From the NCBI GenBank assembly GCA_965218285.1, contig OZ244616.1, forward strand, positions 5,960,270-6,024,269: a stretch of DNA of 64,000 nt, read 5' to 3'. Position numbers and translations under genes: made by a program. The stretch comes from Candidatus Poribacteria bacterium (GTDB lineage Bacteria; Poribacteria; WGA-4E; WGA-3G). Positions 41,260-54,673 of this stretch are shown here, piece by piece. Below the pieces are notes generated by a model. That model saw nothing but the letters and a program-made list of their open reading frames with translations, had not been told where the DNA came from and did no database searches. Every line of letters begins with the position of its first letter. The first letter of the stretch is position 1.

Positions 41260-42051
41260 CTAATATCCCAATTGTCGCAAATATTCCCGATTCACTTTCA
41301 TCCGCTCTTCATCCGAACGATCTTCAACCATACCCGGGCATGCAGTAATCCATCGATCATAGTTGAGTTCTTCTAAAGTGGACATAATTCCGGGAAAATC
41401 CATCGCAGTGCCGCCGCCTACATCCACCCAATCCACATTATACGAACTATCATCGCCACCTGTAAACCCAGAATAATCCTGAAGGTGGACATAAACCAGT
41501 ACATCCTTATATCGACGAATAGCCTCTATCGGATCAAATCCCCAAAGTGCGGAATGCGATACATCAATGCACAGTTTGCACTTTCGGAGAAGACTCATAT
41601 ATTTTGCCCAATCCTCAATAGAATCTACTGTTGTATTGGTATGAATATGATAACAGACATCTAATCCGTATCGTGATGCGTATTCTGCCCACTCTTCGGA
41701 AACATCAGCAAGCTTAGCGAGATCAGAGTTGTTTACCGGTCGGTCACTCGGTTTTCCTGTCCCCATGAACATGAAACAATCCGCCCCAACCTCTGCTGCG
41801 AAGTCGATCCTTCGCTTATTAAGTTCCATCTGTTCAAAATTTTTGTCAATCGGCAACCCACGTGCTGTGACCGCAGCGATTGGCATGTCAATATTCTCGC
41901 ACATCCGCCGAATACGTCGCGGTGTGCCTGCCCAATCTAAGGATTGCCGCATTTCCCAGCCATCCCAACCGGCATCCTTGAGTTGTGTTAACAGTTTCTC
42001 AAAATCTGGCTGTTGCCATCGTAACGTACTATATCCAAATTTGAAACCCAT
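41260..42051 (-). CDS. Sugar phosphate isomerase/epimerase (xylose isomerase-like TIM barrel)
   Basis: Typical layout (GFKFGYST..W, HIHTN..., DVSH, HLQD). ATG 42051 follows AAGGAG. Confidence 0.7.
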   Translation of the reverse strand: MGFKFGYSTLRWQQPDFEKLLTQLKDAGWDGWEMRQSLDWAGTPRRIRRMCENIDMPIAAVTARGLPIDKNFEQMELNKRRIDFAAEVGADCFMFMGTGKPSDRPVNNSDLAKLADVSEEWAEYASRYGLDVCYHIHTNTTVDSIEDWAKYMSLLRKCKLCIDVSHSALWGFDPIEAIRRYKDVLVYVHLQDYSGFTGGDDSSYNVDWVDVGGGTAMDFPGIMSTLEELNYDRWITACPGMVEDRSDEERMKVNREYLRQLGY

Positions 42052-42203
42052 ATTATTTTCTCCTTTTCGGTGTTCTTCTATATCAGAAACATTCAGGTAT
42101 AAATTATAACAGATTTTCATATTGCTTGCAATAAATGTTCATATTTGCTAAACTATTAAAAACTCACGGATTTTCCGTTACGACCTATTTTTAAGGAGAA
42201 AGT

Positions 42204-43169
42204 ATGGACAAAGTTAAACTCGGTTTTATCGGTACAGGTGGTATGGCAGGCGCACACATGCGCAACCTGAAAGATAACTTTGAGGATGTTGAATTCTGTG
42301 CAATGTGCGATATTTCAGAAGATCGTTCGAAAGGGCGCGCCGAAGAGTTCGGTGGCAACGCTTACACCGATTTTCGTGTCATGTACGATAAAGAGGATTT
42401 GGACGCTGTTTATATATGCACACCTCCATTTGCGCACGGTGAACAGGAACGGATCGCTTGCGAAAAAGGCGTTGCTATGTTTATTGAGAAACCGATCCAT
42501 TCTGAATTGGAACCGGCTATCATAATCAATGACTACGTTAAAGAAACCGGCACTATCACAAGTGTGGGTTACCACTGGCGTTATGGTGGCAATGCACAGA
42601 ATGCTAAGGCGATGCTTGAAGAGCAACCGCAAATTCTTGGCGCGCTCGGATATTGGATGGGTGGTATGCCCGGAACGCCTTGGTGGCGTGTGCGTGCACA
42701 ATCTGGTGGACAGCACGTCGAACAGACAACTCACATTTTCGATCTGTGCCGTTTTCTGGTTGGCAGTGATGGTAAAACCGTACACGGTGTTGCAAATAGT
42801 GGTAGCATGACGCATATTGAAAACTATGACGTAGATGACATCAGCATGGTTAACATTGAGTTCGAAAATGGTGCTGTTGCTAATATTGTCTCCGCATGTG
42901 CATTGGAAAGTTTCGGTCGTGTGCATCTTGAGGTGTTCACACGTGGACTCGTTGTCACCGTTGGTGGACCTAACAACGCGAACCGTAAAGGTGAAACGGA
43001 ACCGCTTTCTGGTGCTGGTGGCAAAGATCGTGACCGTGTTTTTATTGATGCTGTCAAGAGTGGAGACGACTCAGAAATCCTGTCTCCCTATAGCGACGCG
43101 TTACAGACACTTCGTATCATGCTTGCTGCAAGCAAATCGTTCGAAACCGGTAGAGCCATTGACCTATAA
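42204..43169 (+). CDS. Gfo/Idh/MocA family oxidoreductase
   Basis: N-terminal Rossmann motif VKLGFIGTGGMAGAH and EKP motif (FIEKPI). Confidence 0.8.
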   Translation: MDKVKLGFIGTGGMAGAHMRNLKDNFEDVEFCAMCDISEDRSKGRAEEFGGNAYTDFRVMYDKEDLDAVYICTPPFAHGEQERIACEKGVAMFIEKPIHSELEPAIIINDYVKETGTITSVGYHWRYGGNAQNAKAMLEEQPQILGALGYWMGGMPGTPWWRVRAQSGGQHVEQTTHIFDLCRFLVGSDGKTVHGVANSGSMTHIENYDVDDISMVNIEFENGAVANIVSACALESFGRVHLEVFTRGLVVTVGGPNNANRKGETEPLSGAGGKDRDRVFIDAVKSGDDSEILSPYSDALQTLRIMLAASKSFETGRAIDL

Positions 43170-43281
43170 AATGTAGTAGGCATGCATTGCGTGCCTCATC
43201 AAAATCTAACGTATTCAGTTTATTGAAAATCAAATTTTATTTCTAAAACCTTTTAACTCATAACAGAAAGAGAAAAGAATT

Positions 43282-44037
43282 ATGCCAATTAATCAATCTA
43301 TCTGCTTTGGAAATTTCCGGCGTGACAGAGAGCCGGAAGATGTTATTAAAAAAGCCGCTGAAATCGGTTACAAATCTGTTGAGATGCTACCTGCCGATCT
43401 CTGGCCTGTTGTTCAAGACAATGGGATGCGGGTTGCAATCATCGTTGGACATTCCTCCCTTCCATCTGGTTTGAATGATCTGAGCAATCATGATCGGATA
43501 GAGGATGAGCTGCTCAAGAATATTGATATTGCTGCAGAAAACGACATTCCAGGACTTATCTGTTTTTCTGGCAACCGAGAAGGCAGGTCTGATGAGGAAG
43601 GTCGTGATAACACAATTGCTGGTTTGTCGCGCGTCACTAAAGCTGCTGAAGAAAAGGGAGTCAATCTCTGTATTGAACTGCTCAACAGCAAAGTGAACCA
43701 TCCTGATTATCAGTGCGATAAGACTGAATGGGGTGTTGAAGTATGCAAAGGCGTCGGTTCTCCGCGGGCACTGCTACTCAACGACATCTACCACATGCAG
43801 ATTATGGAAGGCGATCTCATCCGCAACATCACGGACTACAGCGAATATATTGGGCATTACCACACTGCAGGGAACCCTGGACGTCGCGACCTTGATGACG
43901 AACAGGAAATTTATTATCCTGCTGTGATGCGCGCTATCGCAAAAACGGGGTATGACCTCTATGTAGGACATGAGTTTAGTCCTAAAGGTGATCCGTTTGA
44001 TGCCATGCAGCACGCTTATGATGTGTGTAATGTTTAG
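43282..44037 (+). CDS. Hydroxypyruvate isomerase-like TIM-barrel protein
   Basis: GYKSVE, CIELLN, NDIYHMQIMEGDL and HYHTAG..GR.....E motifs typical of Hyi/xylose-isomerase-like proteins. Confidence 0.65.
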   Translation: MPINQSICFGNFRRDREPEDVIKKAAEIGYKSVEMLPADLWPVVQDNGMRVAIIVGHSSLPSGLNDLSNHDRIEDELLKNIDIAAENDIPGLICFSGNREGRSDEEGRDNTIAGLSRVTKAAEEKGVNLCIELLNSKVNHPDYQCDKTEWGVEVCKGVGSPRALLLNDIYHMQIMEGDLIRNITDYSEYIGHYHTAGNPGRRDLDDEQEIYYPAVMRAIAKTGYDLYVGHEFSPKGDPFDAMQHAYDVCNV

Positions 44038-44133
44038 GTTACTTTGAAAAGTGTAAGGGTGGGTCTCTGTACCCGCCCATTCGCCCTATACCAACCGTCG
44101 CTTCCTTCCTTTTACTTAATTCTTATACCAAAA

Positions 44134-46557
44134 ATGAAACCTGAAGAGAAAGCAAGACAAAACATAGATAGCATGCTGGAAGCGTCTGGATGGCAGATTC
44201 AAAATTATAAAGAACGTAATACAGACGCAGCGTTCGGTGTCGCAGTCCGTGAATACCCGTTGAAATACGATCAAAGTGCAGATTATCTCCTCTTTATCAG
44301 TGGGGTTGCGGTAGGTGTTATTGAAGCCAAAAAAGAAGGTAGAACACCCAGCGGTCCACTCCAACAGGCAGAACGGTATCGAGCAAGTTTGCCAGATGAC
44401 TTGCCAAACCTCCCCAGATTTCCGTTTGCCTACGCATCAACAGGGGTTGAGACATATTTTAGGGATATTCGGGATCCTGATTCTCGTTCCCGACAAGTCT
44501 TTACATTTCATACGCCTGATGCCCTCTGGTATCAAGGTAATGAACTCACTACACTCCGTGAAAATCTCAAGGATGAATTGCCTAAGCATCCCTTAGAAAC
44601 AGATATTCTCTGGAATTGCCAGTTTAAGGCAATCAAAGAGCTAGAGAAATCTTTGGCAGAAGCGCGTCAACGTGCTTTAATCCAGATGGCAACAGGCAGC
44701 GGTAAAACGTTTGCTGCTGTAAGCAGCGTATACCGCCTCATCAAATTTGCTAACGTCAAACGTGTTCTTTTTCTGGTAGACCGCAACAATCTCGGGAGAC
44801 AGGCACTTCGCGAGTTTCAGTCTTACAAGACTCCCGATGACAGTAGAAATTTTGCTGAACTCTACAACGTTCAGCACCTCTCTAGCAACATTATTGACGA
44901 AGCAAGTGCTGTCTGTATTACCACTATCCAACGTCTTTACTCAATGCTGACAGGTGAACCCGACTATGAATCGGACGATGAGGAAAGTTCCGCATTTGAA
45001 CAGGAAACAGCAGGTACAACACCTCAAAAAGTTATCTATAACCAAAATATTCCTATTGATACATTTGACCTTATCATTGTTGATGAATGTCACCGCTCTA
45101 TCTACGGCAAATGGCGGCACGTATTAGAATACTTTGACGCGTTCATTGTCGGATTAACCGCAACGCCATATAACCAAACACTCGGTTTTTTTGATCACAA
45201 TCTTGTTTATGAATACCGCCACGAGCAAGCCGTTGAAGACAACGTTAATGTCGGTTATTACGTCTATCGGATTAAAACCGAAATTACAGAAAGCGGCAGC
45301 ACAGTTGCCGAGGGTAGTTATGTTGCAAGACGGGATAGGGTTAGTCGAAGACTTAACTGGGAGGAGTTGGCGGACGATGTTGAATATACAGGAACACAAT
45401 TGGATCGGGAGGTTGTTGCAGAAGATCAGATTCGTACAGTTATTCAGGCTTTCAAAGATAGTCTCTTTACAGAACTCTTTCGCAATAGGCAAACTGTACC
45501 CAAAACACTTATCTTTGCGAAAGATGATTCCCACGCCGAGGATATTGTCCAAATTGTCCGGAATGTATTTGCCAAAGGCGATGATTTCTGCCAAAAGATC
45601 ACCTACAGAAGTGATAAACCTGAGGACCTCATCAGACGATTTCGCACACAATTTAATCCACGAATCGCCGTAAGTGTTGACATGATTTCTACTGGCACCG
45701 ATATAAAGCCGCTTGAGTGTCTGCTCTTTATGCGTGCTGTCCAGTCAAGTGGGTATTTTGAACAGATGATCGGGCGCGGCGTACGGACTATTAATAGAGA
45801 TGATCTGCGCGCCGTCACCAGTGATGCGACTGCAAAAACCCACTTCATTATCGTTGATGCTGTCGGTGTGTGTGAATCTGTCAAAACTGATTCACAACCA
45901 CGTTCAGGTGAACCATCTGTGACTGAGCCAAACGGACCACGAGAAAGAGACCCCAACCAACTACTTGATGATGTAAGCGTAGACCGGGTTATTCAGACTG
46001 GATTTGATCCTCGAAGTTTCACGCAGGTGACTACAGTTATTCACGACTTTAAACGGTTTATTAATGAACACATAGATGAATTAGCAGCGTTACAAATATT
46101 GTGTCAACGGTCGGGGGCGCAAGGCACGCTGACTGAAGACAACTTAAAGGAGTTGGAGCATGCTTTACAACAGCATTCAAACAGTCTAAGTCGCGAGTCA
46201 TTATGGTTTGCTTACGAAAGGGTATTCCCAACAAAAGTTCTCGGAAATACGGAACAGCGTACAGACATCATATCCCTGGTCCGATTCGCTATGAGGTATA
46301 ATCTATATCTGGAACCTTTTAACGCAACCGTCAAAAGACGATATGAAGAATGGATAACCGACAAAGACTTCACACCGGAACAACGTGAATGGCTTGAAAT
46401 GATACGTGACCATATTGCGACTTCGCTTGACATTCGGATGGATGATTTTGGACTTACTCCCTTCGCGGCACAGGGAGGCATTGCGAGAGTTTTTCATCTT
46501 TTTGGAGATGAGTTAGACGATATACTAACGGATCTCACAGACAAATTGGTTTCTTAA
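44134..46557 (+). CDS. hsdR: Type I restriction enzyme R subunit (EcoEI-like C-terminus)
   Basis: N-terminal nuclease motif ADYLLF...GVIEAKK, helicase motifs MATGSGKT / DECHRS / QMIGRGVR, and an EcoEI_R_C-like tail (FTPEQREWLEMIRDHIA). The track start 44044 is likely too early. Confidence 0.9.
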   Translation: MKPEEKARQNIDSMLEASGWQIQNYKERNTDAAFGVAVREYPLKYDQSADYLLFISGVAVGVIEAKKEGRTPSGPLQQAERYRASLPDDLPNLPRFPFAYASTGVETYFRDIRDPDSRSRQVFTFHTPDALWYQGNELTTLRENLKDELPKHPLETDILWNCQFKAIKELEKSLAEARQRALIQMATGSGKTFAAVSSVYRLIKFANVKRVLFLVDRNNLGRQALREFQSYKTPDDSRNFAELYNVQHLSSNIIDEASAVCITTIQRLYSMLTGEPDYESDDEESSAFEQETAGTTPQKVIYNQNIPIDTFDLIIVDECHRSIYGKWRHVLEYFDAFIVGLTATPYNQTLGFFDHNLVYEYRHEQAVEDNVNVGYYVYRIKTEITESGSTVAEGSYVARRDRVSRRLNWEELADDVEYTGTQLDREVVAEDQIRTVIQAFKDSLFTELFRNRQTVPKTLIFAKDDSHAEDIVQIVRNVFAKGDDFCQKITYRSDKPEDLIRRFRTQFNPRIAVSVDMISTGTDIKPLECLLFMRAVQSSGYFEQMIGRGVRTINRDDLRAVTSDATAKTHFIIVDAVGVCESVKTDSQPRSGEPSVTEPNGPRERDPNQLLDDVSVDRVIQTGFDPRSFTQVTTVIHDFKRFINEHIDELAALQILCQRSGAQGTLTEDNLKELEHALQQHSNSLSRESLWFAYERVFPTKVLGNTEQRTDIISLVRFAMRYNLYLEPFNATVKRRYEEWITDKDFTPEQREWLEMIRDHIATSLDIRMDDFGLTPFAAQGGIARVFHLFGDELDDILTDLTDKLVS

Positions 46558-46698
46558 TTTCATCTTTTGTTAAGAGCAGCCTCTAGTCGCGATTGCCTTT
46601 CTAAAACGCTTGCATCCGCACACAGTTTATGCTAAAATTAAGACTCTATGATGACTGTTTTACCGCAATTTTGAAAACACCCCAAAGAGGACCCATAA

Positions 46699-49569
46699 AT
46701 GCCAGACCCAAAAGATGTTTTTGATAACCCTTTAGAGTATATGGATTTCCTACAGTCTACTGATTTTGAGAGACAGCAATTTGACTGGAAAGAAGTTAGA
46801 ACTGATAACAAGAGTCAAATAGACTCCCTTAAAGACAAAGTCAAAAGGTGTATATCTGCTTTCGCGAATAGTAGTAGAGCAGGTGGACTCTTGGTACTTG
46901 GTATCGCTGATGATGGAACCATTAAAGGCACACAGCATGTTGATGAACAGACAATTAACAACATACTGCAAGTCATACAAAATTTACGTAACCACGCAAC
47001 ACAAGTGCAAGACGTGGAATTACCTAATTCGGATGGAAAACGAATACATCTACTTTATACCCCGTGGACATCAAATGCCATTTGTGAAACAGTAGGTAAT
47101 TTTCATGAGGCATGGAAAAGAGTTGGGGCACAATGTCTTGCACTAACTGAACAAGATAGAGACCAGCTTAAACGGGAAAAAAAGATAGTTGATTTTGAAG
47201 TTTCCTATTGCTGTCCTTATGATCCCGATGAACTTGATAAAAAGGTAGTTGAAGAGTTTAAAAAGGTTTACCTTGAAGACAAAGACGCGCAGTACGATTA
47301 TACAACTGAAGAGGTTTTGTACAATATAGGCGCGCTAATGAAAGAGAATGACAAATACGCGTTTACCAATGCAGGTTTTCTATTTTTTGCCTCAAATCCC
47401 CGTAGGCTTTTTGCAAGTGCGTACGTAAGAGTTCTACGTTTTGAGGTAAACGTTGAGGAGTCCCGTACCCGTGGCGTGACAACTTTTGATAAACGTTTTG
47501 ATGGACCTCTCCCCAACATGATCCGTAAACTACAAACCTTTTTCAAAGATTCCGCTCTTTTTAGAACTATCATAAGACGTAGTTCTCACGGAGGATTCAT
47601 GGAAGATCCTGAATATCCGCTCTTTGTCGTGGACGAAGCACTCATAAACGCCGCAATCCATAGGGACTACGGTGCCACTACAGCGATTCACTGCATTGCG
47701 TATCAGAATGGATTGGTAGTAGAAAATCCAGGGGGGATCCCGCAAGCAGTCCCACAGCATTTTAACCTTGGGGACACGTTCCTAGATTCTGTGCCTCGAA
47801 ATTCAAGAATTGTTGATTGGATGTGTCTCATGAAAGATGAGCGAGAGAAACCTTTAGTACGTGCTTTGAGGGAAGGAACAGAAAAAATGCGTCAAGAGAT
47901 GCATAAAATGGGACTACCACCTCCATCTTATGAAACGACTTTTACGAAAACTTCTGTGACACTTTATAATCTCCTTGAAGAAAGACTTGAACCTCATATA
48001 CATACAAAAAGTACACGAAACAATGAACCTTCAACATCTTCTGCCCTTGACGATATGGGAAAGTCGTCGAGTTTCATAGGATGGAGTCCTGCCCAAACTG
48101 GAGATAGCAAGAACAAGGTTAACAATGGTTTATCTGATTTGCCAAATGGTTGGGAATGGACAACGCTCCAAGAGGCTTGTTCAACACCACAATACGGATG
48201 GACAACAAAAGCAACTGCAGAGGGAACACTTCGTCTGCTCAGGACTACCGATATTACTGATGGAAACGTTGATTGGGAAACAGTACCATTCTGCACAGAA
48301 GAACCACCAGATAAAGAAAAATATCTGTTAAAAACAGGAGATATTGTTATTTCGCGAGCAGGTTCTGTTGGTTACAGTTATCTGGTTAAAAGTCCGCAAA
48401 ATGCGGTTTTTGCTTCGTACCTGATTCGTTTCAAACCGTTATCAATGATTGACGAGAACTATCTTAGATTTTTCTTGAAAAGTCCAGATTATTGGAAAAT
48501 CATTTCAAAAGAAAAAGCAGGGATTGCTCTTGTGAACGTTAACGCTACAAAACTCAAGCGAATTGAAATCCCACTTCCGCCGCTGGCAGAACAACACCGT
48601 ATCGTAGCCAAGTTAGAGGTGCTATTTACACAGTTAGACGCAGCAGTTGATAATCTAAAAAAAGCACAAACGCAGTTGCAACGGTATCGTCAATCACTCC
48701 TCAAATCTGCTTTTGAAGGGGAGTTGACAAAGGAATGGCGGGAAGGGTATTCGGGTGAACTGGAGTCGATGTCGGTTTCGGAAGTTTCTACTATGGGCAG
48801 TTTACCTGATCTGCCTGATGGTTGGGTGTGGACAAAGATTAAGGATATTGCGGAATTTATCCGTGGCGTATCCTATCGAAAAGATCAGTCCTCTAAAACC
48901 CCAAAAGATAACTATGTTCCTATATTGCGAGCAAACAATATCAACGCGCAACTGAATTATGAAGACCTTGTTTATGTTCAGCGTGAAAGGATTAAAGATG
49001 AGCAATTTGTCAAGGCATTAGACATTATCATCGCGATGTCAAGTGGTAGTAAACACCTCGTCGGCAAAGCTGCCCAAGCATATCAGGATTTTGAAGGTGG
49101 TTTTGGGACATTTTGTGGATTGGTTAGAGTTTCTGAAGAAGTTAATCAAAAATTCATTGGTTTATTTTTTCAAAGTCCCGGTTATAGAAACGAGATATCC
49201 CGTCTCTCTATTGGGATAAACATCAATAACCTTCGGAGAGAAAACATAGAGGAAATGCTTATACCCGTTCCACCGCTTGCCGAACAGGAACAGATTGTCT
49301 CTGAACTTAAGCGGCACCTTTCAGTCGCTGATGAAATTGAAGCAACTATCGGGGCAGAGTTGACACGTGCCGAACGTTTGCGGCAGTCTATCCTCAAGGA
49401 TGCGTTTTCTGGTAAATTTGTGCCGCAAGACCCGAAAGATGAACCGGCAAGTGTCCTATTAGAGAAAATCCGAGAAGAGAAAGAAGATCGGCAACCGCAG
49501 CGAAAAAAGACTAAGACTAAAGTGAAAAGGACATCTTCGGCACAGCAATTGTCCCTCCCGCTTGACTGA
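46699..49569 (+). CDS. hsdS: Fusion protein: AlbA_2 (Schlafen-like) plus HATPase_c_4-like N-terminal half joined to a complete two-TRD type I specificity subunit
   Basis: aa 1-~450: FERQQFDWKE...AFANSSRAGGLLVLGIADDGTIKG (AlbA_2-like) and EALINAAIHRDYG...VENPGGIP (HATPase_c_4-like). aa ~478-956: LPNGWEWTTL..., LPPLAEQHRIVAKLE..., LPDGWVWTKIKD..., VPPLAEQEQIVSELK... (HsdS TRD1-CR1-TRD2-CR2). Confidence 0.8.
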   Translation: MPDPKDVFDNPLEYMDFLQSTDFERQQFDWKEVRTDNKSQIDSLKDKVKRCISAFANSSRAGGLLVLGIADDGTIKGTQHVDEQTINNILQVIQNLRNHATQVQDVELPNSDGKRIHLLYTPWTSNAICETVGNFHEAWKRVGAQCLALTEQDRDQLKREKKIVDFEVSYCCPYDPDELDKKVVEEFKKVYLEDKDAQYDYTTEEVLYNIGALMKENDKYAFTNAGFLFFASNPRRLFASAYVRVLRFEVNVEESRTRGVTTFDKRFDGPLPNMIRKLQTFFKDSALFRTIIRRSSHGGFMEDPEYPLFVVDEALINAAIHRDYGATTAIHCIAYQNGLVVENPGGIPQAVPQHFNLGDTFLDSVPRNSRIVDWMCLMKDEREKPLVRALREGTEKMRQEMHKMGLPPPSYETTFTKTSVTLYNLLEERLEPHIHTKSTRNNEPSTSSALDDMGKSSSFIGWSPAQTGDSKNKVNNGLSDLPNGWEWTTLQEACSTPQYGWTTKATAEGTLRLLRTTDITDGNVDWETVPFCTEEPPDKEKYLLKTGDIVISRAGSVGYSYLVKSPQNAVFASYLIRFKPLSMIDENYLRFFLKSPDYWKIISKEKAGIALVNVNATKLKRIEIPLPPLAEQHRIVAKLEVLFTQLDAAVDNLKKAQTQLQRYRQSLLKSAFEGELTKEWREGYSGELESMSVSEVSTMGSLPDLPDGWVWTKIKDIAEFIRGVSYRKDQSSKTPKDNYVPILRANNINAQLNYEDLVYVQRERIKDEQFVKALDIIIAMSSGSKHLVGKAAQAYQDFEGGFGTFCGLVRVSEEVNQKFIGLFFQSPGYRNEISRLSIGININNLRRENIEEMLIPVPPLAEQEQIVSELKRHLSVADEIEATIGAELTRAERLRQSILKDAFSGKFVPQDPKDEPASVLLEKIREEKEDRQPQRKKTKTKVKRTSSAQQLSLPLD

Positions 49570-49696
49570 ACTCCACTTTTAAACTAAAGTTGAACTTCGT
49601 TTTGTTTTTAATGTAAATTTATAGTAGAATATGAGTGTAACGTAACTGCAACTATTTGTTTGTTAAACATCTTGATGTAACTTAGGAAATATTAAT

Positions 49697-50002
49697 ATGA
49701 CGCTTATCGTTTCGCTTGAGACTTCGGATAGTGCGGATGGAGATGAAGAAACACGAGAAACCGATCCACTCCTTGCACTTGCAGGAACGTTGGATTTAGA
49801 TGTCACAGAAATAAAGAAACGCCTCAAGAATGCCGTCCGTCTAAAGACACGCGTAGTTAAAGGACCTTATGAAGACCACCCGGATCCGCTCATCGCATTG
49901 CTAGGAACGTTGGAATGTGATGTCACAGACATCGGTGAACGCCACGATGACTATATTGGCGACGCGTTATTAGCAGAATTATGGGGAGACGAGGAGGAAT
50001 GA
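49697..50002 (+). CDS. Small highly acidic protein with an internal repeat (antitoxin-like tail)
   Basis: DPLLALAGTLDLDVTEI and DPLIALLGTLECDVTDIGERHDDYIG repeats. Asp/Glu-rich. No family assigned. Confidence 0.5.
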   Translation: MTLIVSLETSDSADGDEETRETDPLLALAGTLDLDVTEIKKRLKNAVRLKTRVVKGPYEDHPDPLIALLGTLECDVTDIGERHDDYIGDALLAELWGDEEE

Positions 50003-50036
50003 GGAACTCATTTCACACTCGTATAGGTGACACATT

Positions 50037-50450
50037 ATGGAAACCGGACAAAAGGAACATGATCTCACTTTACCGCCAGCAGATAAAGTGCTGTTTCGGA
50101 AACAGGTGCAACGCGAATTAGACGAAATCCGACAGGAAGCTGAGGAGGCTTATGCCTTGGATAACGAGATTGACCCTGTCCCAGATTCGGCTTATCATGA
50201 TGCGCTCGTTTTGTTAGAGATGCTTTGTAATTACAAGCTGCCCATGCCAGATTTTAGTTGGGCAGAAGATGGCAGTCTTAGTATCGGATGGTATCCGGAT
50301 GAAGGCATGGTAACAATGGGGATATATGGAGACGATCTTGTCATCTATAATGCTTTCTTTGAGGAAAGACGTCAATTTGAAGGAATCTGCGAATTATCAG
50401 ATACACCTGTGTTATCAGGTGTTCTCACAACATTGACAAATATCCTCTAA
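50037..50450 (+). CDS. Hypothetical protein, paralog A
   Basis: 137 aa. The first ~55 aa are nearly identical to paralog B (50737..51150) and the remainder is about 65% identical. No family recognised. Confidence 0.55.
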   Translation: METGQKEHDLTLPPADKVLFRKQVQRELDEIRQEAEEAYALDNEIDPVPDSAYHDALVLLEMLCNYKLPMPDFSWAEDGSLSIGWYPDEGMVTMGIYGDDLVIYNAFFEERRQFEGICELSDTPVLSGVLTTLTNIL

Positions 50451-50584
50451 TACCCAATTAACGGGATTTGTAGCGCGAGGTCCCCGTGCCTCGCAATGCT
50501 AACCGCTATTAGAAGTCTTTTGATATAGTACACCGTTGTGAGGCACAGGAACCTCACACTACAAATCGGGGTAATTTGATATTA
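50451..50584. mobile_element. IS630-derived MITE (family C, long palindromic variant)
   Basis: taatacccaattaacgggatttgtagcgcgaggtccccgtgcctcgcaatgc ... gtgaggcacaggaacctcacactacaaatcggggtaatttgatatta. Confidence 0.7.
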
Positions 50585-50585
50585 T

Positions 50586-50720
50586 AACATGAGTTTGATA
50601 AAAACAAGATGTCGGGCTTCTTGTAGGGGCGAGGTCTTCTCGCCCGTAGGGGTTAGGTTACCTAACCCCTATGAAAATGTCCATTTATGTTTAGAATTTG
50701 CTATATATCAAACTCACGTT
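50586..50720. mobile_element. 135-bp MITE (family F)
   Basis: Termini aacatgagtttgata / tatcaaactcacgtt. Internal hairpins ggcgag..ctcgcc and ggggttaggttacctaacccc. Second copy at 54708-54840. Confidence 0.7.
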
Positions 50721-50736
50721 AGTATAGGTGAACATT

Positions 50737-51150
50737 ATGGAAACCGGACAAAAAGAACATGATCTCCCTTTACCGCCAGCAGATAAAGTGCTGTTTCGGA
50801 AACAGGTGCAGCGCGAATTAGACGAAATCCGCCAAGAAGCTGAGGAAGCCTATGTCTTGGATAACGAAATTGACCCTGTCCCAGATTCGGCGTATGATGA
50901 AGCCTATTCCTTATTAGAGATACTTTTTGATAACAATATACCTATGCCAGATTTCGGTTGGGCAGAGGATGGGAGTCTTGGGTTAGAATGGCGACCAGAG
51001 AAAGGAATCGCTACTATAGGGATATATGGAGACAATCTCGTTATATACGGTGCATTCTTTGAAGAGAACCGTCAAGTTGAGGGAATTTGCACACTATCTG
51101 ATACCGCAATGTTGTCGGGTTTTCTTGCAACGTTATTAAACCTCCTTTAA
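50737..51150 (+). CDS. Hypothetical protein, paralog B
   Basis: METGQKEHDLPLPPADKVLFRKQVQRELDEIRQEAEEAY... Tandem paralog of 50037..50450. Confidence 0.55.
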   Translation: METGQKEHDLPLPPADKVLFRKQVQRELDEIRQEAEEAYVLDNEIDPVPDSAYDEAYSLLEILFDNNIPMPDFGWAEDGSLGLEWRPEKGIATIGIYGDNLVIYGAFFEENRQVEGICTLSDTAMLSGFLATLLNLL

Positions 51151-51163
51151 ATAAGGGTATGAT

Positions 51164-51570
51164 GTCAATAACCCCAAGCTAAAGCATGGGGCTTGTGCGA
51201 AGCGCATGCCAAGCGTCCACTCCACAAGTTAAACGGTTGATTAGACGATATATCGTGGGTCTTGTCGTGGCAGACAAAAAGATGTTTCGGATGCTCCCCA
51301 AGTCTGATTCCTCTCTGATCCCATGATGTCGATGGGGAAACATATACCGCGAGAGCGTGGGCTTACAGCCATTATTTCTGGTAAAGACATCGTGTCAGGT
51401 CAAGTAAGCGAGTAGTGACAGTCTCACTGAACGAAGCAGCACAACTGAATCCAGACTCCCAGTGTGCAGGTGGAGATAAAACAGCACTCCCCTTTTAGGG
51501 ACAAACTAAAAATTAGGAGGCGGGCTTTCCTCCCCTGCCTAAAGGCGAGGGGTTTCCAGCCCGAAGATTT
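51164..51570 (+). mobile_element. Protein-less derivative of the IsrB element (omega-RNA-like left part plus right-end hairpin)
   Basis: The first ~140 nt align with the 5' regions of copies 1 and 2 (gtcaataaccccaagctaaagcatggggcttgtgcgaagcgcat...). The last ~50 nt match the right end (ggcgggctttcctcccc...ccagcccgaaga). It has no isrB ORF and is followed by TGATGA like the other copies. Confidence 0.6.
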
Positions 51571-51572
51571 TG

Positions 51573-51968
51573 ATGAATGTCTCACCAGGTGAGAAACTCA
51601 CCCGTTTTATTCGTTATAGCAATCAGTTTTCCCATGTTAAGGGGGAGGTAAGATACAGAGCGTTTATTCCACCTAAAAATAGTATAAATCTGTCTGTGTT
51701 CCGTATATCATTACCTCCAGAACTCTCAAACAACGCAGTATGGAAGATTGGACTTGACTATGTCGAACGAGAAGGAATACCAATAAAGGCACGCGCCGAT
51801 CTATTTGTGAGTGATGTTGCTGCTAATAACCTTGAAGTCATTTCTGACGAGCCACCTCCGAGGCATGCGAATATCACACCGTTTCCTGCAGACAACAAAG
51901 CGCGGCAAAGTATAGCCAGAAAACTTGCTCATGCCAGTAAATTAGTTGTTATACCAGAAAAAACCTGA
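51573..51968 (+). CDS. Hypothetical protein
   Basis: 131-aa ORF starting at the ATG of the TGATGA that abuts the element. No family recognised. Overlaps the track extension of hsdM. Confidence 0.45.
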   Translation: MNVSPGEKLTRFIRYSNQFSHVKGEVRYRAFIPPKNSINLSVFRISLPPELSNNAVWKIGLDYVEREGIPIKARADLFVSDVAANNLEVISDEPPPRHANITPFPADNKARQSIARKLAHASKLVVIPEKT

Positions 51969-51996
51969 TTCCAGTCAAAACAAATTAAGGGTATAC

Positions 51997-53463
51997 ATGT
52001 CCAACGAATCAGCAACAATCGTTCAAAAACTATGGAATTTCTGCAATGTGCTCCGAGATGATGGAGTCAGTTACGGAGATTACGTCGAACAACTCACGTA
52101 TCTACTTTTTCTCAAACTCGCTGACGAACAGAGCAAACTATCCTCTAACACATCATCTAATTTACCTTCTGGTTTGGATTGGGAAAGTCTGCTCAAAGAA
52201 AGCGGTGCTGCGTTAGAGGATCAATATGTCAGAATCCTTCGAGAATTGAGCAATGAGAAAGGTTTGCTTGGTGTGATCTTCAGAAAATCGCAAAATCGCA
52301 TTCAGACACCTGCCCACCTTCAACGCCTCATCAAGCTCATTGATGCCGAGATTTGGAGCGAGATGACAGATGATGTCAAAGGCACAATTTACGAAGGACT
52401 TTTGCAGAAAAACGCTGAAGATACAAAAAGTGGTGCAGGACAGTACTTCACACCCCGTTCACTTATCAAAGCAATTGTTACCGTGATGCAACCTAAACCG
52501 ATGAAGACGATTTGTGATCCAGCATGCGGAACAGGAGGATTTTTCCTTGCTGCGTACGAGTACATATCTGAACAGTACCGCACAACATTAACTCGTAAAC
52601 AGAAGAAGTTTCTCAAATTTGAGACCTTTGCTGGAACAGACATCGTTGATAATGTTGTACGTCTCTGTGTAATGAATCTATACCTGCACAGCATTGGTGG
52701 CACAGAGAGTCCAATTACAACTGATGATAGTCTAAGCAAGGATCCGGGCAAACGCCACGATATGGTGCTGACGAATCCACCATTCGGTAACAAGAGTAGT
52801 GTTACAATCACTGCCGATGGTGAAAAACGGAGTAAGGCATCACTCACGTATGAACGCGATGATTTTTGGACGACGACTTCAAATAAACAGTTCAACTTCC
52901 TGCAACACATTAAAACGATTTTGAAGGAAGATGGTCGCGCTGCCGTGGTACTCCCAGACAATGTCCTATTTGAAAGAGGAGCAGGTGAAACGATTCGCAG
53001 GCAACTGCTTAAACTTTTTGATGTTCATACATTGTTACGATTGCCAACTGGTATCTTCTATGCACAAGGTGTGAAGGCAAACGTACTCTTTTTTGACAAA
53101 CGTCCTGCGCGTGAGGAACCGTGGACACAGAAACTTTGGATATATGACCTGCGGACGAACAAACGTTTTACCCTCAAGACAAATCCCTTAGGCGATACCG
53201 ACCTACAGGATTTTATTAAAGTCTACAATCCAAAGAACCGTCACGAACGGACTGAAACAGAATGTTTCCACGCCTTCAGTTACGAGGAACTTATCCAACG
53301 TGAACATGCCAACCTTGACATCTTTTGGCTAAAAGAGGATTCACTTGAAGATGCAGCGGATCTTCCAAAACCAAATATATTAGCTGAGGAAATCACACAG
53401 AATTTACAGACTGCCTTGGAACAGTTTCAGAACATCCAAGCAGAATTAGGCGACAGCGACTAA
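51997..53463 (+). CDS. hsdM: Type I restriction-modification N6-adenine DNA methyltransferase
   Basis: HsdM N-terminal motif LWNFCNVLRDDG, AdoMet motif DPACGTGGF, catalytic NPPFG. ATG 51997 preferred over the track start 51946. Confidence 0.9.
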   Translation: MSNESATIVQKLWNFCNVLRDDGVSYGDYVEQLTYLLFLKLADEQSKLSSNTSSNLPSGLDWESLLKESGAALEDQYVRILRELSNEKGLLGVIFRKSQNRIQTPAHLQRLIKLIDAEIWSEMTDDVKGTIYEGLLQKNAEDTKSGAGQYFTPRSLIKAIVTVMQPKPMKTICDPACGTGGFFLAAYEYISEQYRTTLTRKQKKFLKFETFAGTDIVDNVVRLCVMNLYLHSIGGTESPITTDDSLSKDPGKRHDMVLTNPPFGNKSSVTITADGEKRSKASLTYERDDFWTTTSNKQFNFLQHIKTILKEDGRAAVVLPDNVLFERGAGETIRRQLLKLFDVHTLLRLPTGIFYAQGVKANVLFFDKRPAREEPWTQKLWIYDLRTNKRFTLKTNPLGDTDLQDFIKVYNPKNRHERTETECFHAFSYEELIQREHANLDIFWLKEDSLEDAADLPKPNILAEEITQNLQTALEQFQNIQAELGDSD

Positions 53464-53522
53464 ATTATGCTGTCTGTTATTAAAATTGTAATCTTAAGGG
53501 AAAGGGGCAGTAAAGCAAAATA

Positions 53523-54508
53523 CGCTCATGTCAAGAGTAAGTGCTTTTGACGAGTTTTGCTATAAAATCAACACTGACAGCTTTTAGATTCATGACGAAC
53601 TCACAGATTGCGACGTAACCGGCGAGGAACTTTTTATGAACGCCACGAAAGGGACGAAGGAAGTTTCGCAGCGTCGTCCAGGCACCTTCAATCGTATTTG
53701 TATGGATCTCGTAAAGACCATCACCGTCTGCGTCTCTTGCCCACTCGCCATCCTTATGGAGAACAATTTCACGGGCGCGCTGAATACGGTTATAGCCGCG
53801 CCAACCATCCGTATACACCGTTGAAGTCGGCAGCGTAAACTGATGAACGTGTGTTGAAAGCGTCGCAGAATCGGTGTGCCGCACAACACGTAATCTCAGG
53901 AGACCGCTTTCGCGACCTTTCGTCCCAACAATAGGCGGACGATCATTGTCATAAGTCCCATGTCCCCTGCGTTTATTGCCACGCCGACGCGGCGGATCCG
54001 AAGCATCAACGTGCTTATCGCCTTTTTCACCGGCGTTTTGAAACATCTCATCTGTTTCGACTTCAGCATCGGGTAAAGCAGCTTCGGGCTGTATCTGCTC
54101 TGCCGAAGTTTGGAGTTTACGTCTTATAGAAAGAACGGTTTGACGACTTAGACCCAGTTCACGCCCGAGTTGTGCACTTGAAACACCTTGACAGACACCG
54201 CGCAAAAGCAGAACGACCTGTGAGGGACGAAACTGCGTGCCAGCAAAGACCGTCCCGGTATAGAGGTTGTAGATGCTCTCACAGTGTTTGCAGCGATACA
54301 CTTGTAGACCACTTGTTTCAGTCTTACGGAACTTGCGTGCCTCCGCCACGCTCGCTTGGCATTTTGGGCAACACAGCCCTTGAGGGTGGAAATGATCCAA
54401 CACCCACGCTTGAGTTTTTTCTTCATCCATGAGAGATTGTATTGGAAAGTCCATAGGTAACACTCTAACATAACTTTGAAAAAATAGCACTTACTTTTTA
54501 CATGAGCC
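53523..54508 (-). mobile_element. IS1595-family insertion sequence with 8-bp target duplication gcaaaata
   Basis: Termini cgctcatgtcaagagtaagtgct / agcacttactttttacatgagcc are inverted repeats. gcaaaata at 53515-53522 and 54509-54516. Confidence 0.8.
53531..54490 (-). CDS. IS1595-family (ISXO2-like) transposase
   Basis: N-terminal zinc ribbon (CPKC...CKHC), HTH, DDE-like C-terminal domain (VETDEMF ... VYTDGWRGY ... NTIEGAW). The real start may be 54454. Confidence 0.8.
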   Translation of the reverse strand: MLFFQSYVRVLPMDFPIQSLMDEEKTQAWVLDHFHPQGLCCPKCQASVAEARKFRKTETSGLQVYRCKHCESIYNLYTGTVFAGTQFRPSQVVLLLRGVCQGVSSAQLGRELGLSRQTVLSIRRKLQTSAEQIQPEAALPDAEVETDEMFQNAGEKGDKHVDASDPPRRRGNKRRGHGTYDNDRPPIVGTKGRESGLLRLRVVRHTDSATLSTHVHQFTLPTSTVYTDGWRGYNRIQRAREIVLHKDGEWARDADGDGLYEIHTNTIEGAWTTLRNFLRPFRGVHKKFLAGYVAICEFVMNLKAVSVDFIAKLVKSTYS

Positions 54509-54551
54509 GCAAAATATAGTCAAATTTATACAAATCTATACATTGTAAGAT

Positions 54552-54673
54552 CAGAGCCATTCAATTGTCCGGTAGTTCTCATCTGATGCTCAAGTCTCTC
54601 TTCTGTAGGAGCGATCTCCGAATCGCGATCTTCTCTAAAATGTAGTGAAAAACTTGAAAACTGAATGGCTCTG
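54552..54673. mobile_element. 122-bp MITE (family B) with 9-bp target duplication ttgtaagat
   Basis: Identical to 8894-9015. Direct repeat ttgtaagat on both flanks. Confidence 0.8.

What the first reader, a model, noticed from the sequence alone, without database searches (positions are those of the whole stretch)
46699..49569. Type I specificity subunit fused to an AlbA_2/HATPase_c_4-like module (956 aa)
One uninterrupted ORF joins two parts.
- An N-terminal ~450 aa resembles the putative DNA-binding/ATPase proteins (AlbA_2 Schlafen-like domain plus HATPase_c_4) that often occur as separate genes in type I R-M operons.
- A complete HsdS follows, with two target-recognition domains and both conserved helices (LPPLAEQHRIVAKLE..., VPPLAEQEQIVSELK...).

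The linker (…TRNNEPSTSSALDDMGKSSSFIGWSPAQTGDSKNKVNNGLSD-LPNGWEW) is low-complexity and contains an internal Met (MGKSSS) that could also give a stand-alone HsdS. A covalent fusion would tether the accessory module to the methylase/restriction complex. That could be a regulatory or second-effector arrangement I have not seen characterised.
Basis: partly seen in the sequence, partly recalled or inferred. Interest (0 to 1): 0.7.

Follow-up and report, generated by a model that had tools for sequence, protein, structure and literature searches.

The report
Schlafen tRNase module fused to HsdS
In this sponge-symbiont (Poribacteria) genome, the DNA-recognition subunit of a type I restriction-modification system carries a Schlafen-type RNase plus ATPase module, most likely a built-in "suicide" back-up effector; the fusion is real and conserved, but a 2026 preprint has already noted it.

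Summary
Window 46699-49569 (+) is one uninterrupted 956-aa ORF. It contains SLFN_AlbA_2, the GHKL ATPase domain HATPase_c_4, a ~45-aa linker, and a complete two-TRD HsdS. It lies between intact hsdR and hsdM.

- **Not an artefact.** The same fusion occurs in about 35 other protein clusters (44-87% identity) and about 10 Candidatus Poribacteria genomes. Both halves are under purifying selection (dN/dS about 0.1-0.2).
- **What the N-terminal module is.** It is the "Schlatpase" supradomain of SLFN-pAgo defence proteins (PADLOC pAgo model, E 6e-159). Nuclease and ATPase motifs are intact, and the fold matches SLFN11/13/14.
- **How it arose.** At this one operon slot, Poribacteria show three interconverting states: Schlatpase-pAgo, stand-alone Schlatpase next to hsdS, and Schlatpase-HsdS. 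The fusion removed the stop codon, spacer and hsdS start codon, and it occurs in at least two separate clades.
- **Internal start.** The internal Met is not conserved and is not the old hsdS start.
- **Likely function (inferred).** A tRNA-cleaving abortive-infection effector tethered to the type I complex.
- **Novelty.** Kuzmenko et al. (bioRxiv, May 2026) already reported this Poribacteria fusion in passing. Its mechanism in the R-M context is untested.

The parts
44044..46557 (+). hsdR, the type I restriction subunit (HSDR_N, ResIII/DEAD, Helicase_C, EcoEI_R_C). It is intact.
   Evidence: Pfam; PADLOC REase_I; 70-92% identical orthologues at the same position in related loci.
46558..46698 (+). 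Conserved intergenic leader with an AAAGAGGA ribosome-binding site, upstream of the fusion gene.
   Evidence: Sequence; the segment is conserved in 10 related loci, fused and split alike.
46699..49569 (+). The whole fusion gene, Schlatpase-HsdS: 956 aa plus stop.
46699..47193 (+). Schlafen/AlbA_2 nuclease domain (residues 1-165). It carries the E24-x4-D29-x-K31 motif, the SAFAN box (S53-N57) and D71/D72.
   Evidence: Pfam 24-148. Motifs are conserved in 33-36 fused homologues and in SLFN-pAgo relatives. Fold matches to SLFN11, SLFN13, SLFN14 and the SAMD9 tRNase at probability 1.0. dN/dS 0.10-0.22.
47194..47997 (+). Bridging region plus GHKL (Bergerat-fold) ATPase domain (residues 166-433). 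N-box E313/N317, NPGG 343-346, E392-G393-T394.
   Evidence: Pfam HATPase_c_4 330-422. These residues are invariant in alignments A1 and A3. Weaker fold matches to histidine-kinase CA domains and PDK4. The whole module matches PDB 3lmm. dN/dS 0.09-0.28.
47998..48132 (+). Low-complexity linker (residues 434-478). Its first part derives from the C-terminal tail of a stand-alone Schlatpase.
   Evidence: Alignment with split-state loci. pLDDT below 50. dN/dS 0.37-0.57. Linker length differs between the two fused clades.
48100..48125 (+). Fusion joint. This is where split-state relatives have the Schlatpase stop (TAA), a ~10-15 nt spacer with an AAAGGA RBS, and the hsdS start (ATG AGC AAA ATG). About 10 nt are missing here and both Met codons are replaced.
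   Evidence: DNA alignment A2; three-frame translations.
48133..48573 (+). HsdS target-recognition domain 1 (residues 479-625).
   Evidence: Pfam, NCBIfam and PADLOC. Conserved within the long-linker fused clade: identity about 0.7-0.8 and dN/dS 0.06-0.17.
48574..48798 (+). HsdS central conserved helical region (residues 626-700; LPPLAEQHRIVAKLE...).
   Evidence: helix 629-673 in the model.
48799..49263 (+). HsdS target-recognition domain 2 (residues 701-855). Hypervariable between orthologues, which indicates TRD swapping.
   Evidence: Pfam 706-890; column identity about 0.2 while the flanks are about 0.8.
49264..49566 (+). HsdS distal conserved helix plus C-terminal tail (residues 856-956; VPPLAEQEQIVSELK...).
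49697..50002 (+). Accessory gene famA (101 aa). Function unknown; conserved in related operons.
   Evidence: 62-88% identical copies in most related loci; no hit in Pfam, NCBIfam, PADLOC or PHROGs.
50037..50450 (+). Accessory gene famB, copy 1 (137 aa). Function unknown.
   Evidence: 76% identical to copy 2.
50728..51150 (+). Accessory gene famB, copy 2 (140 aa). Function unknown.
51570..51968 (+). Accessory gene famC (132 aa). It lies about 30 nt upstream of hsdM in the window and in the relatives examined. Function unknown; the few source-named homologues are Poribacteria or Latescibacteria.
51997..53463 (+). hsdM, the type I methyltransferase (HsdM_N + N6_Mtase). The likely start is ATG 51997 (488 aa, as in relatives); the mechanical ORF starts at TTG 51946.
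   Evidence: Pfam; PADLOC MTase_I E 4e-196; 488-aa orthologues; 98.6% DNA identity to L011.

Best explanation
**Shown.** This is a genuine, selectively maintained gene. A Schlatpase supradomain (Schlafen/AlbA_2 nuclease plus GHKL ATPase) is joined by a flexible ~45-aa linker to the only HsdS in an otherwise complete type I R-M operon (hsdR, fusion, famA/B/B/C, hsdM) of a Candidatus Poribacteria genome. The fusion arose from a stand-alone Schlatpase gene lying immediately upstream of hsdS. A small deletion removed the stop codon, the spacer/RBS and the hsdS start codon. That stand-alone gene descends in turn from a SLFN-pAgo inserted between hsdR and hsdS.

**Inferred.** Because no other HsdS is encoded in the window, the M2S / R2M2S complex must carry one Schlatpase per complex. 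By analogy with the >55-67% identical module of SLFN-pAgos (RzAgo), I make three inferences:
1. The SLFN domain is a metal-dependent tRNase.
2. The GHKL domain uses ATP binding to drive the dimer/tetramer assembly that the nuclease needs.
3. The HsdS/HsdM DNA-recognition machinery replaces the Argonaute core as the sensor.

My preferred mechanism is this: when several complexes engage unmodified (foreign) DNA, their tethered Schlatpase modules come together and oligomerise. They then cleave tRNA, adding translation arrest / abortive infection as a second layer behind restriction.
For: - **Fusion and domains:**
- **Recurrence:** full-length homologues P0002-P0036 (44-87% identity) from many samples. 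About 10 of the Poribacteria genome loci examined keep one uninterrupted fused ORF. The operon sits at the same chromosomal site in relatives.
- **Purifying selection after fusion:** dN/dS 0.09-0.28 in the SLFN, bridging and GHKL regions. This equals the HsdS core (0.06-0.3), whereas the linker is 0.37-0.57.
- **Catalytic and ATP-binding motifs:** E24-x4-D29-x-K31, SAFAN, E313/N317 and NPGG are conserved in fused homologues and in SLFN-pAgos. They match the motifs shown to be essential in RzAgo (D32A and E314A abolish defence).
- **Same module as SLFN-pAgo:** PADLOC pAgo HMM PDLC02394 matches residues 1-437 at E 6e-159.
- **Fold:** the model (pLDDT 89.8) matches 3lmm, SLFN11/13/14 and the SAMD9 tRNase significantly, and histidine-kinase CA domains more weakly.
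- **Only one hsdS in the window**, and the old hsdS start codons are gone.
- **HsdS half still evolves like an active specificity subunit:** TRD2 is hypervariable between conserved helices.
- **Repeated association with hsdS:** three states at one slot and at least two separately supported fused clades.
- **Literature:** the SLFN-pAgo mechanism and the Poribacteria fusion; Schlafen-HisKinase-wHTH genes proposed as backup suicidal effectors inside BREX loci; bacterial Schlafens as phage-activated tRNases fused to varied sensors.
Against: - No experiment addresses this protein. tRNA cleavage, ATP-dependent oligomerisation and assembly with HsdM are all extrapolated from RzAgo.
- Type I complexes carry a single HsdS, so the oligomerisation step needs several complexes to meet. 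That is plausible but untested.
- Two of eight fused loci have a disrupted hsdR (L001 by IS insertion, L003/L010 truncated). The fused gene therefore persists without an intact restriction subunit, so a strictly translocation/collision-driven trigger is unlikely to be the whole story.
- Fused and split states interconvert, and the Schlatpase cassette behaves as a recombining allele (65-80% DNA identity inside an operon that is otherwise mostly 85-99% identical). Covalent linkage may therefore not matter functionally.
- Some Poribacteria loci carry the same Schlatpase with no R-M genes nearby (L013, L016, L030, L031, L037, L039).
- Taboada et al. tested pSlfn-HisKinase constructs among seven candidates. 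Only a DUF262-Slfn fusion (EcoDUF262-Slfn) and the Ig-like fusion RorSlfn5 are reported as protective in the text I read.
Confidence: 0.5

Rival explanations
1. Guard model, analogous to PrrC. The Schlatpase tRNase is held silent by the intact type I methylase/restriction complex. It is unleashed when a phage anti-restriction factor (a DNA mimic such as Ocr/ArdA, or an Stp-like peptide) binds or deforms the complex. The fusion would then punish inhibition of restriction rather than report foreign DNA.
For: From established knowledge, not tested here: the only experimentally understood tRNase physically coupled to a type I R-M system, PrrC with EcoprrI, works this way. Schlafen-HisKinase genes inside BREX loci have been interpreted as backup suicidal effectors against counter-defence. 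The fused gene persists in loci whose hsdR is broken, which fits a trigger acting on the M2S core. Everything structural fits this model as well as it fits the preferred one.
Against: In the characterised sister protein, the Schlatpase is licensed by positive recognition of target DNA, not by inhibition of a partner. A covalently tethered module cannot be released by dissociation the way PrrC is. No anti-restriction trigger is known for Poribacteria phages.
Confidence: 0.2
2. Functionally uncoupled fusion. The Schlatpase is an autonomous defence module that happens to sit next to hsdS in a defence island. Loss of about 10 nt joined two neighbouring genes, and the flexible linker lets each half work as before, with no communication between them.
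For: Fused, split and pAgo-fused states interconvert repeatedly at this slot. The Schlatpase cassette recombines independently of the flanking R-M genes. The same Schlatpase occurs alone, without R-M genes, in several Poribacteria loci. SLFN-pAgos show no conserved partner genes. The linker is disordered and under relaxed constraint.
Against: The stand-alone form has no sensor domain of its own; it is about 466 aa, consisting of the Schlatpase plus a 33-aa tail. In the split state its gene lies immediately upstream of hsdS. The fused state is found in two separately supported clades with different junctions and has survived to 44-87% protein identity with both halves under purifying selection. 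A neutral accident that places a potentially toxic oligomerising RNase on an essential subunit of the R-M complex would be expected to be lost.
Confidence: 0.2
3. Non-nuclease role. The AlbA_2/GHKL module acts as a nucleic-acid-binding or regulatory domain (the older 'DNA-binding / HTH regulator / RecG-like' annotations), modulating DNA binding, methylation or expression of the type I system without cleaving RNA.
For: Sources name relatives 'predicted HTH transcriptional regulator' or 'RNA-binding domain-containing protein'. Ryazansky et al. 2018 treated the Schlafen/AlbA_2 domain as DNA-binding. PHROGs labels the module 'DNA helicase'.
Against: The full nuclease motif set is conserved under purifying selection. 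In the >55% identical RzAgo-type module, this site is a demonstrated tRNase required for defence. The fold matches active SLFN and SAMD9 tRNase domains. There is no HTH domain in this protein.
Confidence: 0.07
4. Artefact or pseudogene. Two genes were joined by an assembly or sequencing error, or by a very recent lost stop in this genome only.
For: Closely related genomes do have a stop codon and a separate hsdS at the homologous position (L011 and others). Read support could not be inspected.
Against: The identical in-frame junction occurs in many independent assemblies and samples. The junction lacks about 10 nt rather than one base and has lost both old start codons. dN/dS shows long-term constraint on both halves after fusion.
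Confidence: 0.02

Closest known systems
Poribacteria Schlatpase-HsdS fusion reported by Kuzmenko et al., bioRxiv 10.64898/2026.05.29.728809 (Fig. 1f)
   Same: [quoted passage not shown] The homologous operons likewise carry either a SLFN-pAgo or a stand-alone Schlatpase. My loci reproduce all three states.
   Different: The preprint gives one paragraph and one figure panel covering three species. It has no junction analysis, no selection analysis, no count of events and no functional test of the R-M fusion. I cannot tell whether this exact genome is one of their three.
SLFN-pAgo (RzAgo of Runella zeae), long-B Argonaute with an N-terminal Schlatpase
   Same: The N-terminal 437 aa are the same module: PADLOC pAgo HMM E 6e-159, and 55-67% identity to Poribacteria SLFN-pAgos. 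The nuclease and GHKL motifs are the same. It is a single-polypeptide fusion of effector and nucleic-acid sensor.
   Different: There is no PAZ/MID/PIWI core. The sensor half is a protein-based, sequence-specific DNA reader that works inside a multi-subunit M2S/R2M2S complex, not an RNA-guided Argonaute. Guide-RNA filament autoinhibition cannot apply.
PrrC anticodon nuclease with the EcoprrI type I R-M system (also RloC); from established knowledge
   Same: A tRNA-cleaving suicide effector encoded inside a type I R-M operon and physically associated with the R-M complex. It is the conceptual precedent for coupling restriction to abortive infection.
   Different: The folds are unrelated: PrrC is an ABC-type ATPase plus a HEPN-like nuclease, and nothing of that kind is found here. 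PrrC associates non-covalently and is activated by a phage anti-restriction peptide. Here the linkage is covalent, to HsdS, and the trigger is unknown.
Stand-alone Schlatpase proteins (pSlfn-HisKinase, with or without wHTH; e.g. PDB 3lmm DIP2311) in R-M and BREX loci
   Same: The same SLFN plus GHKL supradomain (3lmm: E 5e-7 by sequence, 2e-19 by fold). They often sit inside methylation-based defence loci and have been proposed as backup RNase effectors. The immediate ancestor of this fusion is such a stand-alone gene.
   Different: Those proteins end after the ATPase or in a small wHTH. Here the C-terminal DNA-binding part is an entire HsdS, so the effector is an obligatory part of the R-M complex.
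Canonical type I specificity subunits (HsdS; the operon's HsdR carries the EcoEI_R_C domain)
   Same: Two TRDs separated by two conserved helices, TRD swapping between orthologues, and an operon with hsdM and hsdR.
   Different: A 478-aa N-terminal extension carrying two enzymatic domains. hsdS is separated from hsdM by four conserved small genes of unknown function.

Membership tests
Type I R-M specificity subunit (HsdS) | Two target-recognition domains (Methylase_S repeats) | tested here: met
   Pfam PF01420, two stretches, E 7e-33. PADLOC Specificity_I models cover 480-940 end to end, E 2e-103. NCBIfam NF007278 E 2e-81, although below its equivalog cut-off.
Type I R-M specificity subunit (HsdS) | Two conserved helical spacer regions between and after the TRDs | tested here: met
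   Conserved blocks at 626-700 and 856-925 (identity about 0.8). Long helices at 629-673 and 860-902 in the model; local pLDDT is about 77-87 although the whole model is poor.
Type I R-M specificity subunit (HsdS) | Encoded with hsdM and hsdR in one operon | tested here: met
   hsdR at 44044-46557 and hsdM at 51997-53463 on the same strand. The same order is seen in related loci.
Type I R-M specificity subunit (HsdS) | Assembles into M2S1 / R2M2S1 and directs methylation of a bipartite site | not testable with these tools
   Needs biochemistry or methylome data from long-read kinetics of these genomes.
Schlatpase supradomain (prokaryotic Schlafen nuclease + GHKL ATPase) | SLFN_AlbA_2 (PF04326) followed by HATPase_c_4 (PF13749) | tested here: met
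   Both score above the Pfam gathering thresholds (49.1 vs 25.3 bits; 33.2 vs 26 bits).
Schlatpase supradomain (prokaryotic Schlafen nuclease + GHKL ATPase) | Nuclease motif E-x4-(D/E)-x-K and SAFAN (Schlafen box) | tested here: met
   E24 RQQF D29 W K31 and S53-A-F-A-N57. They are conserved in the 33-sequence and 75-sequence alignments.
Schlatpase supradomain (prokaryotic Schlafen nuclease + GHKL ATPase) | GHKL N-box Glu/Asn (RzAgo E314/N318) and glycine-rich ATP-lid motifs | tested here: met
   E313, N317, G345 and E392-G393-T394 are invariant across fused and pAgo relatives.
Schlatpase supradomain (prokaryotic Schlafen nuclease + GHKL ATPase) | Schlafen C-lobe-like nuclease fold plus Bergerat ATPase fold | tested here: met
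   Model pLDDT 89.8. Foldseek: 3lmm 2e-19; SLFN11 7fex 3e-5; SLFN14 9nyy; SLFN13 5yd0; SAMD9 tRNase 9o0d. Histidine-kinase CA domains and PDK4 match at weaker E, about 0.02-0.06.
Schlatpase supradomain (prokaryotic Schlafen nuclease + GHKL ATPase) | tRNA cleavage activity and ATP-driven tetramerisation | not testable with these tools
   Shown for RzAgo only.
SLFN-pAgo (extra-long long-B Argonaute) | PAZ-MID-PIWI Argonaute core C-terminal to the Schlatpase | tested here: not met
   No Piwi or pAgo match beyond residue 437. tblastn with the pAgo core of P0038 finds nothing in the window. The PADLOC pAgo hit covers only model positions 1-449 of 1121.
PrrC/RloC-type anticodon nuclease guarding a type I R-M system | ABC-type ATPase N-domain plus HEPN-like anticodon nuclease domain | tested here: not met
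   No such domains by Pfam, NCBIfam, PADLOC or fold search. The resemblance is functional analogy only.
PrrC/RloC-type anticodon nuclease guarding a type I R-M system | Activation by a phage anti-restriction factor | not testable with these tools
   Requires co-expression experiments.

The most novel reading that the evidence does not exclude
The type I R-M complex itself acts as the sensor for a Schlafen tRNase. One DNA-recognition event by HsdS/HsdM, either on unmodified DNA or on blockade by an anti-restriction protein, would be converted through ATP-driven GHKL oligomerisation of HsdS-tethered modules into tRNA cleavage and abortive infection. Restriction and suicide would then be executed by one machine. 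By Rosetta-stone logic, the many stand-alone Schlatpase genes embedded in R-M and BREX loci would dock on methyltransferase-specificity complexes in the same way.
Probability: 0.3. Interest if true: 0.75.

Novelty: already known. Interest (0 to 1): 0.45.

Why it matters
If the tethered Schlafen module really is switched by the type I complex, this would be a covalent link between classical restriction and abortive infection, and a natural experiment in swapping sensors on one effector. The same tRNase/ATPase cassette would be driven by an RNA-guided Argonaute in one genome and by a protein-based DNA reader in its neighbour.

It would also suggest a partner for some of the stand-alone Schlatpase proteins, whose triggers are unknown. 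That set is large: about 60,000 of about 103,000 prokaryotic Schlafen-domain proteins carry the ATPase.

The Poribacteria loci supply matched fused, split and pAgo alleles in near-identical operons, which is convenient material for such tests.

For annotation: PADLOC's pAgo model scores this HsdS at E 6e-159, so tools using it could miscall it as an Argonaute.

Tried and rejected
- **Full-length AlphaFold2 model** from the 33-sequence alignment: mean pLDDT 51, unusable for domain arrangement or fold search. I used the N-terminal module alone instead.
- **The look-up of encoding contigs for the window's own protein:** not on record.
- **Independent, distant Schlatpase-HsdS fusions.** The exhaustive 1.84-billion-representative search listed only this family as fused (P0008, P0030, partial P0123) among the top 150 (above 292 bits). 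Weaker independent fusions cannot be excluded.
- **Taboada et al. supplementary tables** (55 architectures): not held, so I could not check whether a Methylase_S fusion is listed. The main text does not mention HsdS or R-M fusions.
- **Accessory genes famA/B/C:** nothing in Pfam at E up to 10, NCBIfam, PADLOC, PHROGs or PDB sequences. The famC homologue search returned only unnamed hypotheticals; the few that carry a source name are Poribacteria or Latescibacteria.
- **Rfam scan of 40000-58000:** no hits.
- **Promoter/terminator scan:** counts equal the shuffled expectation. The promoter-like site at 47941-47970, upstream of Met453, is not evidence for an internal transcript; its TATAAT comes from the conserved TLYN codons.
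- **First bootstrap attempt** timed out. I redid it with a faster distance routine.
- **Rejected: lost-stop artefact and internal-initiation HsdS.** Reasons are given under the rival explanations and the first-reader interpretation.

Full report
**1. Observation**

Window 46699-49569 (+) is a single ATG-initiated ORF of 956 codons with no internal stop. An AAAGAGGA ribosome-binding motif precedes it. Pfam assigns:
- SLFN_AlbA_2 to residues 24-148 (E 1e-12)
- HATPase_c_4 to residues 330-422 (E 5e-8)
- two Methylase_S stretches (E 7e-33)

PADLOC Specificity_I models cover residues 480-940 end to end. The immediate neighbours on the same strand are an intact hsdR (44044-46557) and hsdM (the ORF starts at 51946; the likely start is ATG 51997, giving the 488 aa seen in relatives). 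tblastn finds no second hsdS in the 64-kb window.

**2. Not an artefact**

A search of 5.8 billion proteins returned the same full-length architecture in clusters P0002-P0036. These are 44-87% identical, mostly 880-980 aa with near-complete query coverage, and come from many samples. A scan of GTDB species representatives shows the window is from Candidatus Poribacteria. Across that scan and the contig look-ups, about 10 Poribacteria loci keep one uninterrupted fused ORF.

Nei-Gojobori dN/dS between fused orthologues:

| Region | dN/dS |
|---|---|
| SLFN domain | 0.10-0.22 |
| Bridging region | 0.09-0.23 |
| GHKL domain | 0.09-0.28 |
| TRD1 | 0.06-0.17 |
| Conserved HsdS helices | 0.1-0.3 |
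| Linker | 0.37-0.57 |

Both halves have therefore been maintained by selection since the fusion.

**3. What the N-terminal half is**

PADLOC's pAgo model PDLC02394 matches residues 1-437 at E 6e-159, covering model positions 1-449 of 1121. The closest non-HsdS relatives are Piwi-containing proteins of about 1,110 aa that share 55-67% identity over the first ~440 residues.

These are the SLFN-pAgos described by Kuzmenko et al. (bioRxiv 10.64898/2026.05.29.728809). [quoted passage not shown]

The motifs that paper defines are all present here and conserved:
- E24-x4-D29-x-K31
- the SAFAN box (S53-N57)
- the GHKL N-box E313/N317, corresponding to RzAgo E314/N318
- the glycine motifs

An AlphaFold2 model of residues 1-440 built from 75 relatives is confident (pLDDT 89.8). 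Its fold matches are:
- over its whole length, the uncharacterised Schlatpase-like PDB entry 3lmm (E 2e-19)
- over the N-terminal domain, SLFN11, SLFN13, SLFN14 and the SAMD9 tRNase domain (probability 1.0)
- more weakly, histidine-kinase CA domains and PDK4

**4. How the fusion arose**

I classified 56 related loci by tblastn. The slot between hsdR and hsdS in the orthologous Poribacteria operon has three states:
- **(i) Schlatpase-pAgo followed by a separate hsdS** (L034, L036, L038).
- **(ii) A stand-alone Schlatpase of about 466 aa immediately upstream of hsdS** (L011, L017-L022, L024, L026, L027, L032 and others).
- **(iii) The Schlatpase-HsdS fusion** (window, L001-L004, L008-L010, L028, L029).

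Truncated remnants also occur.

In state (ii) the Schlatpase ends ...KKALRSIGERLAKIQ-TAA. A spacer of about 10-15 nt containing AAAGGA follows, and then hsdS begins ATG AGC AAA ATG. In the fused genes about 10 nt are missing at exactly this point. The old tail is retained as the first part of the linker. The two hsdS Met codons align to GAT and GTT at about 48103-48122. It is replaced by V, T, I or other residues in orthologues, is absent from the short-linker clade, and has no Shine-Dalgarno motif.

A bootstrapped NJ tree of the Schlatpase module shows:
- All non-Poribacteria outgroups except the distant rooting sequence (L054, a stand-alone protein about 27% identical) are in the pAgo state.
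- The long-linker fused genes (apart from L028, whose placement is weakly supported, 14%) fall in one clade at 94%, with stand-alone L012 and L013/L014 nested inside.
- The short-linker fused genes (L002, L029; 100%) form a sister group to split-state L032/L033 (98%).
- pAgo-state L036 groups at 100% with stand-alone and split L026, L035, L037 and L039. L035 retains a 41-aa pAgo remnant between the Schlatpase and hsdS.

The simplest history is as follows. A SLFN-pAgo inserted into the R-M operon. Its Argonaute core was lost, more than once. The remaining module then fused to the adjacent hsdS at least twice, or fused once with several later fissions.

The cassette also recombines. Against L011, the window is mostly 85-99% identical across hsdR, the hsdS part and hsdM, but only 65-80% across the Schlatpase and 53-69% across the linker.

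**5. Context**

Between the fusion and hsdM lie four small genes: famA (49697-50002), two famB paralogues (50037-50450 and 50728-51150, 76% identical) and famC (51570-51968). Homologues occur in nearly all related operons. None matches any profile library or solved structure. All famC homologues are unannotated; the few that carry a source name are Poribacteria or Latescibacteria. Their role is unknown. They could be unrelated hitch-hikers or regulators/inhibitors of the system.

TRD2 of the HsdS half is hypervariable between orthologues (identity about 0.2) while the flanking helices are conserved. This is the usual signature of specificity switching in active type I systems.

**6. Mechanism**

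*Shown:* an intact, constrained Schlatpase is covalently attached through a disordered linker to the only specificity subunit of a complete type I operon.

*Inferred from RzAgo:* the SLFN domain is a tRNase, and the GHKL domain is an ATP-driven oligomerisation switch.

*Inferred from the architecture:* the HsdS/HsdM DNA-recognition machinery replaces Argonaute as the sensor or scaffold. A type I complex has one HsdS, whereas the nuclease needs dimers or tetramers. Activation should therefore require several complexes to come together, most plausibly on unmodified foreign DNA. This would give a translation-arrest / abortive-infection layer behind restriction (confidence about 0.5).

*Rivals:*
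- **PrrC-like guard model (0.2).** An anti-restriction protein is the trigger.
- **Uncoupled fusion (0.2).** Each half works independently.
- **Non-nuclease regulatory role (0.07).**
- **Artefact (0.02).**

Two observations caution against a strictly HsdR-dependent trigger: hsdR is disrupted in two of eight fused loci, and the same Schlatpase exists without adjacent R-M genes in some genomes.

**7. Comparison with the known, and novelty**

- **HsdS:** the protein meets every sequence-level criterion for HsdS.
- **Schlatpase:** it meets every sequence-level criterion for the Schlatpase supradomain.
- **pAgo:** it is not a pAgo, because it has no PAZ/MID/PIWI core.
- **PrrC:** the relationship is by analogy only.
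- **Prior report:** the fusion itself is not new. [quoted passage not shown] 1f).
- **Related surveys:** Taboada et al. (Nat Microbiol 2026) catalogue 55 pSlfn architectures, but their main text does not mention HsdS. A BREX survey proposes Schlafen-HisKinase-wHTH genes as backup suicidal effectors in methylation-based defence loci.
- **What this analysis adds:**
  - the junction anatomy and loss of the hsdS start codons
  - evidence for purifying selection on both halves
  - the three-state polymorphism, with at least two fused clades and recombining cassettes
  - the conserved unknown accessory genes
- **What remains open:** function in the R-M context has not been tested experimentally.

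**8. Verdict**

I rate novelty as already known at the level of the architecture, with an open and testable mechanism. Interest 0.45.

Noticed in passing
window 53531-54490 (-): An IS1595-family transposase gene lies directly downstream of hsdM. It is 99.5% identical in DNA to the copy that interrupts hsdR in the related genome L001 (6861-7846). The IS appears to be currently active and is eroding these R-M operons.
   Followed up: partly
window 49697-51968 (famA 49697-50002; famB 50037-50450 and 50728-51150; famC 51570-51968): Four small genes of three families separate hsdS from hsdM and recur in nearly all related Poribacteria operons. famB is tandemly duplicated here (76% aa identity). None matches Pfam, NCBIfam, PADLOC, PHROGs or PDB sequences. 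All famC homologues are unannotated; the few that carry a source name are Poribacteria or Latescibacteria.
   Followed up: partly
window 50451-50727, 51151-51569, 54491-54960 and dispersed copies: The operon's intergenic regions are built from dispersed short repeats (MITE/REP-like):
- A ~64-75-nt element (two inverted copies at 50451-50582) recurs at about 12312, 15533, 18002, 23185, 27070, 32951, 61858 and 62025.
- A 138-nt repeat at 50584-50721 equals 54706-54843 (97%).
- A 188-nt repeat at 51164-51348 equals 34736-34923 and 5281-5468 (86%).
- A 123-nt repeat at 54552-54674 equals 8894-9016 (100%).
   Followed up: no
window 46699-48009: PADLOC's pAgo HMM PDLC02394 scores this HsdS fusion at E 6e-159 through the shared Schlatpase module alone. 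Automated defence-system annotation could therefore miscall Schlatpase-HsdS, or stand-alone Schlatpase, genes as Argonautes.
   Followed up: yes
window 46700-48130 compared with L011 8001-9433: The Schlatpase plus linker is a divergent allele (53-80% DNA identity), whereas most of the flanking hsdR, hsdS part and hsdM is 85-99% identical to L011, which has the split arrangement. This indicates cassette-level recombination between lineages.
   Followed up: partly
L035 9558-9680; L034, L036, L038: Related Poribacteria operons carry a full SLFN-pAgo between hsdR and hsdS. L035 keeps only a 41-aa remnant of the Argonaute core after a stand-alone Schlatpase, which looks like a snapshot of Argonaute-core deletion.
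   Followed up: partly
L001 7904-9859 and L003/L010 8601-9861: In two genomes with an intact fusion gene, hsdR is fragmented (by IS insertion) or truncated. In L001, hsdM is also missing. The fused gene can therefore outlive the restriction subunit.
   Followed up: no
window 51946 vs 51997: The mechanical hsdM ORF starts at TTG 51946 (505 aa). Orthologues are 488 aa, consistent with a start at ATG 51997 (MSNESATIVQKLW...). With that start, hsdM does not overlap famC.
   Followed up: yes
window 58621-61143 (-): An 840-aa protein combines an N-terminal sigma-70 region 4 domain with BNR/sortilin-type beta-propeller repeats. This is an unusual architecture, unrelated to the finding.
   Followed up: no
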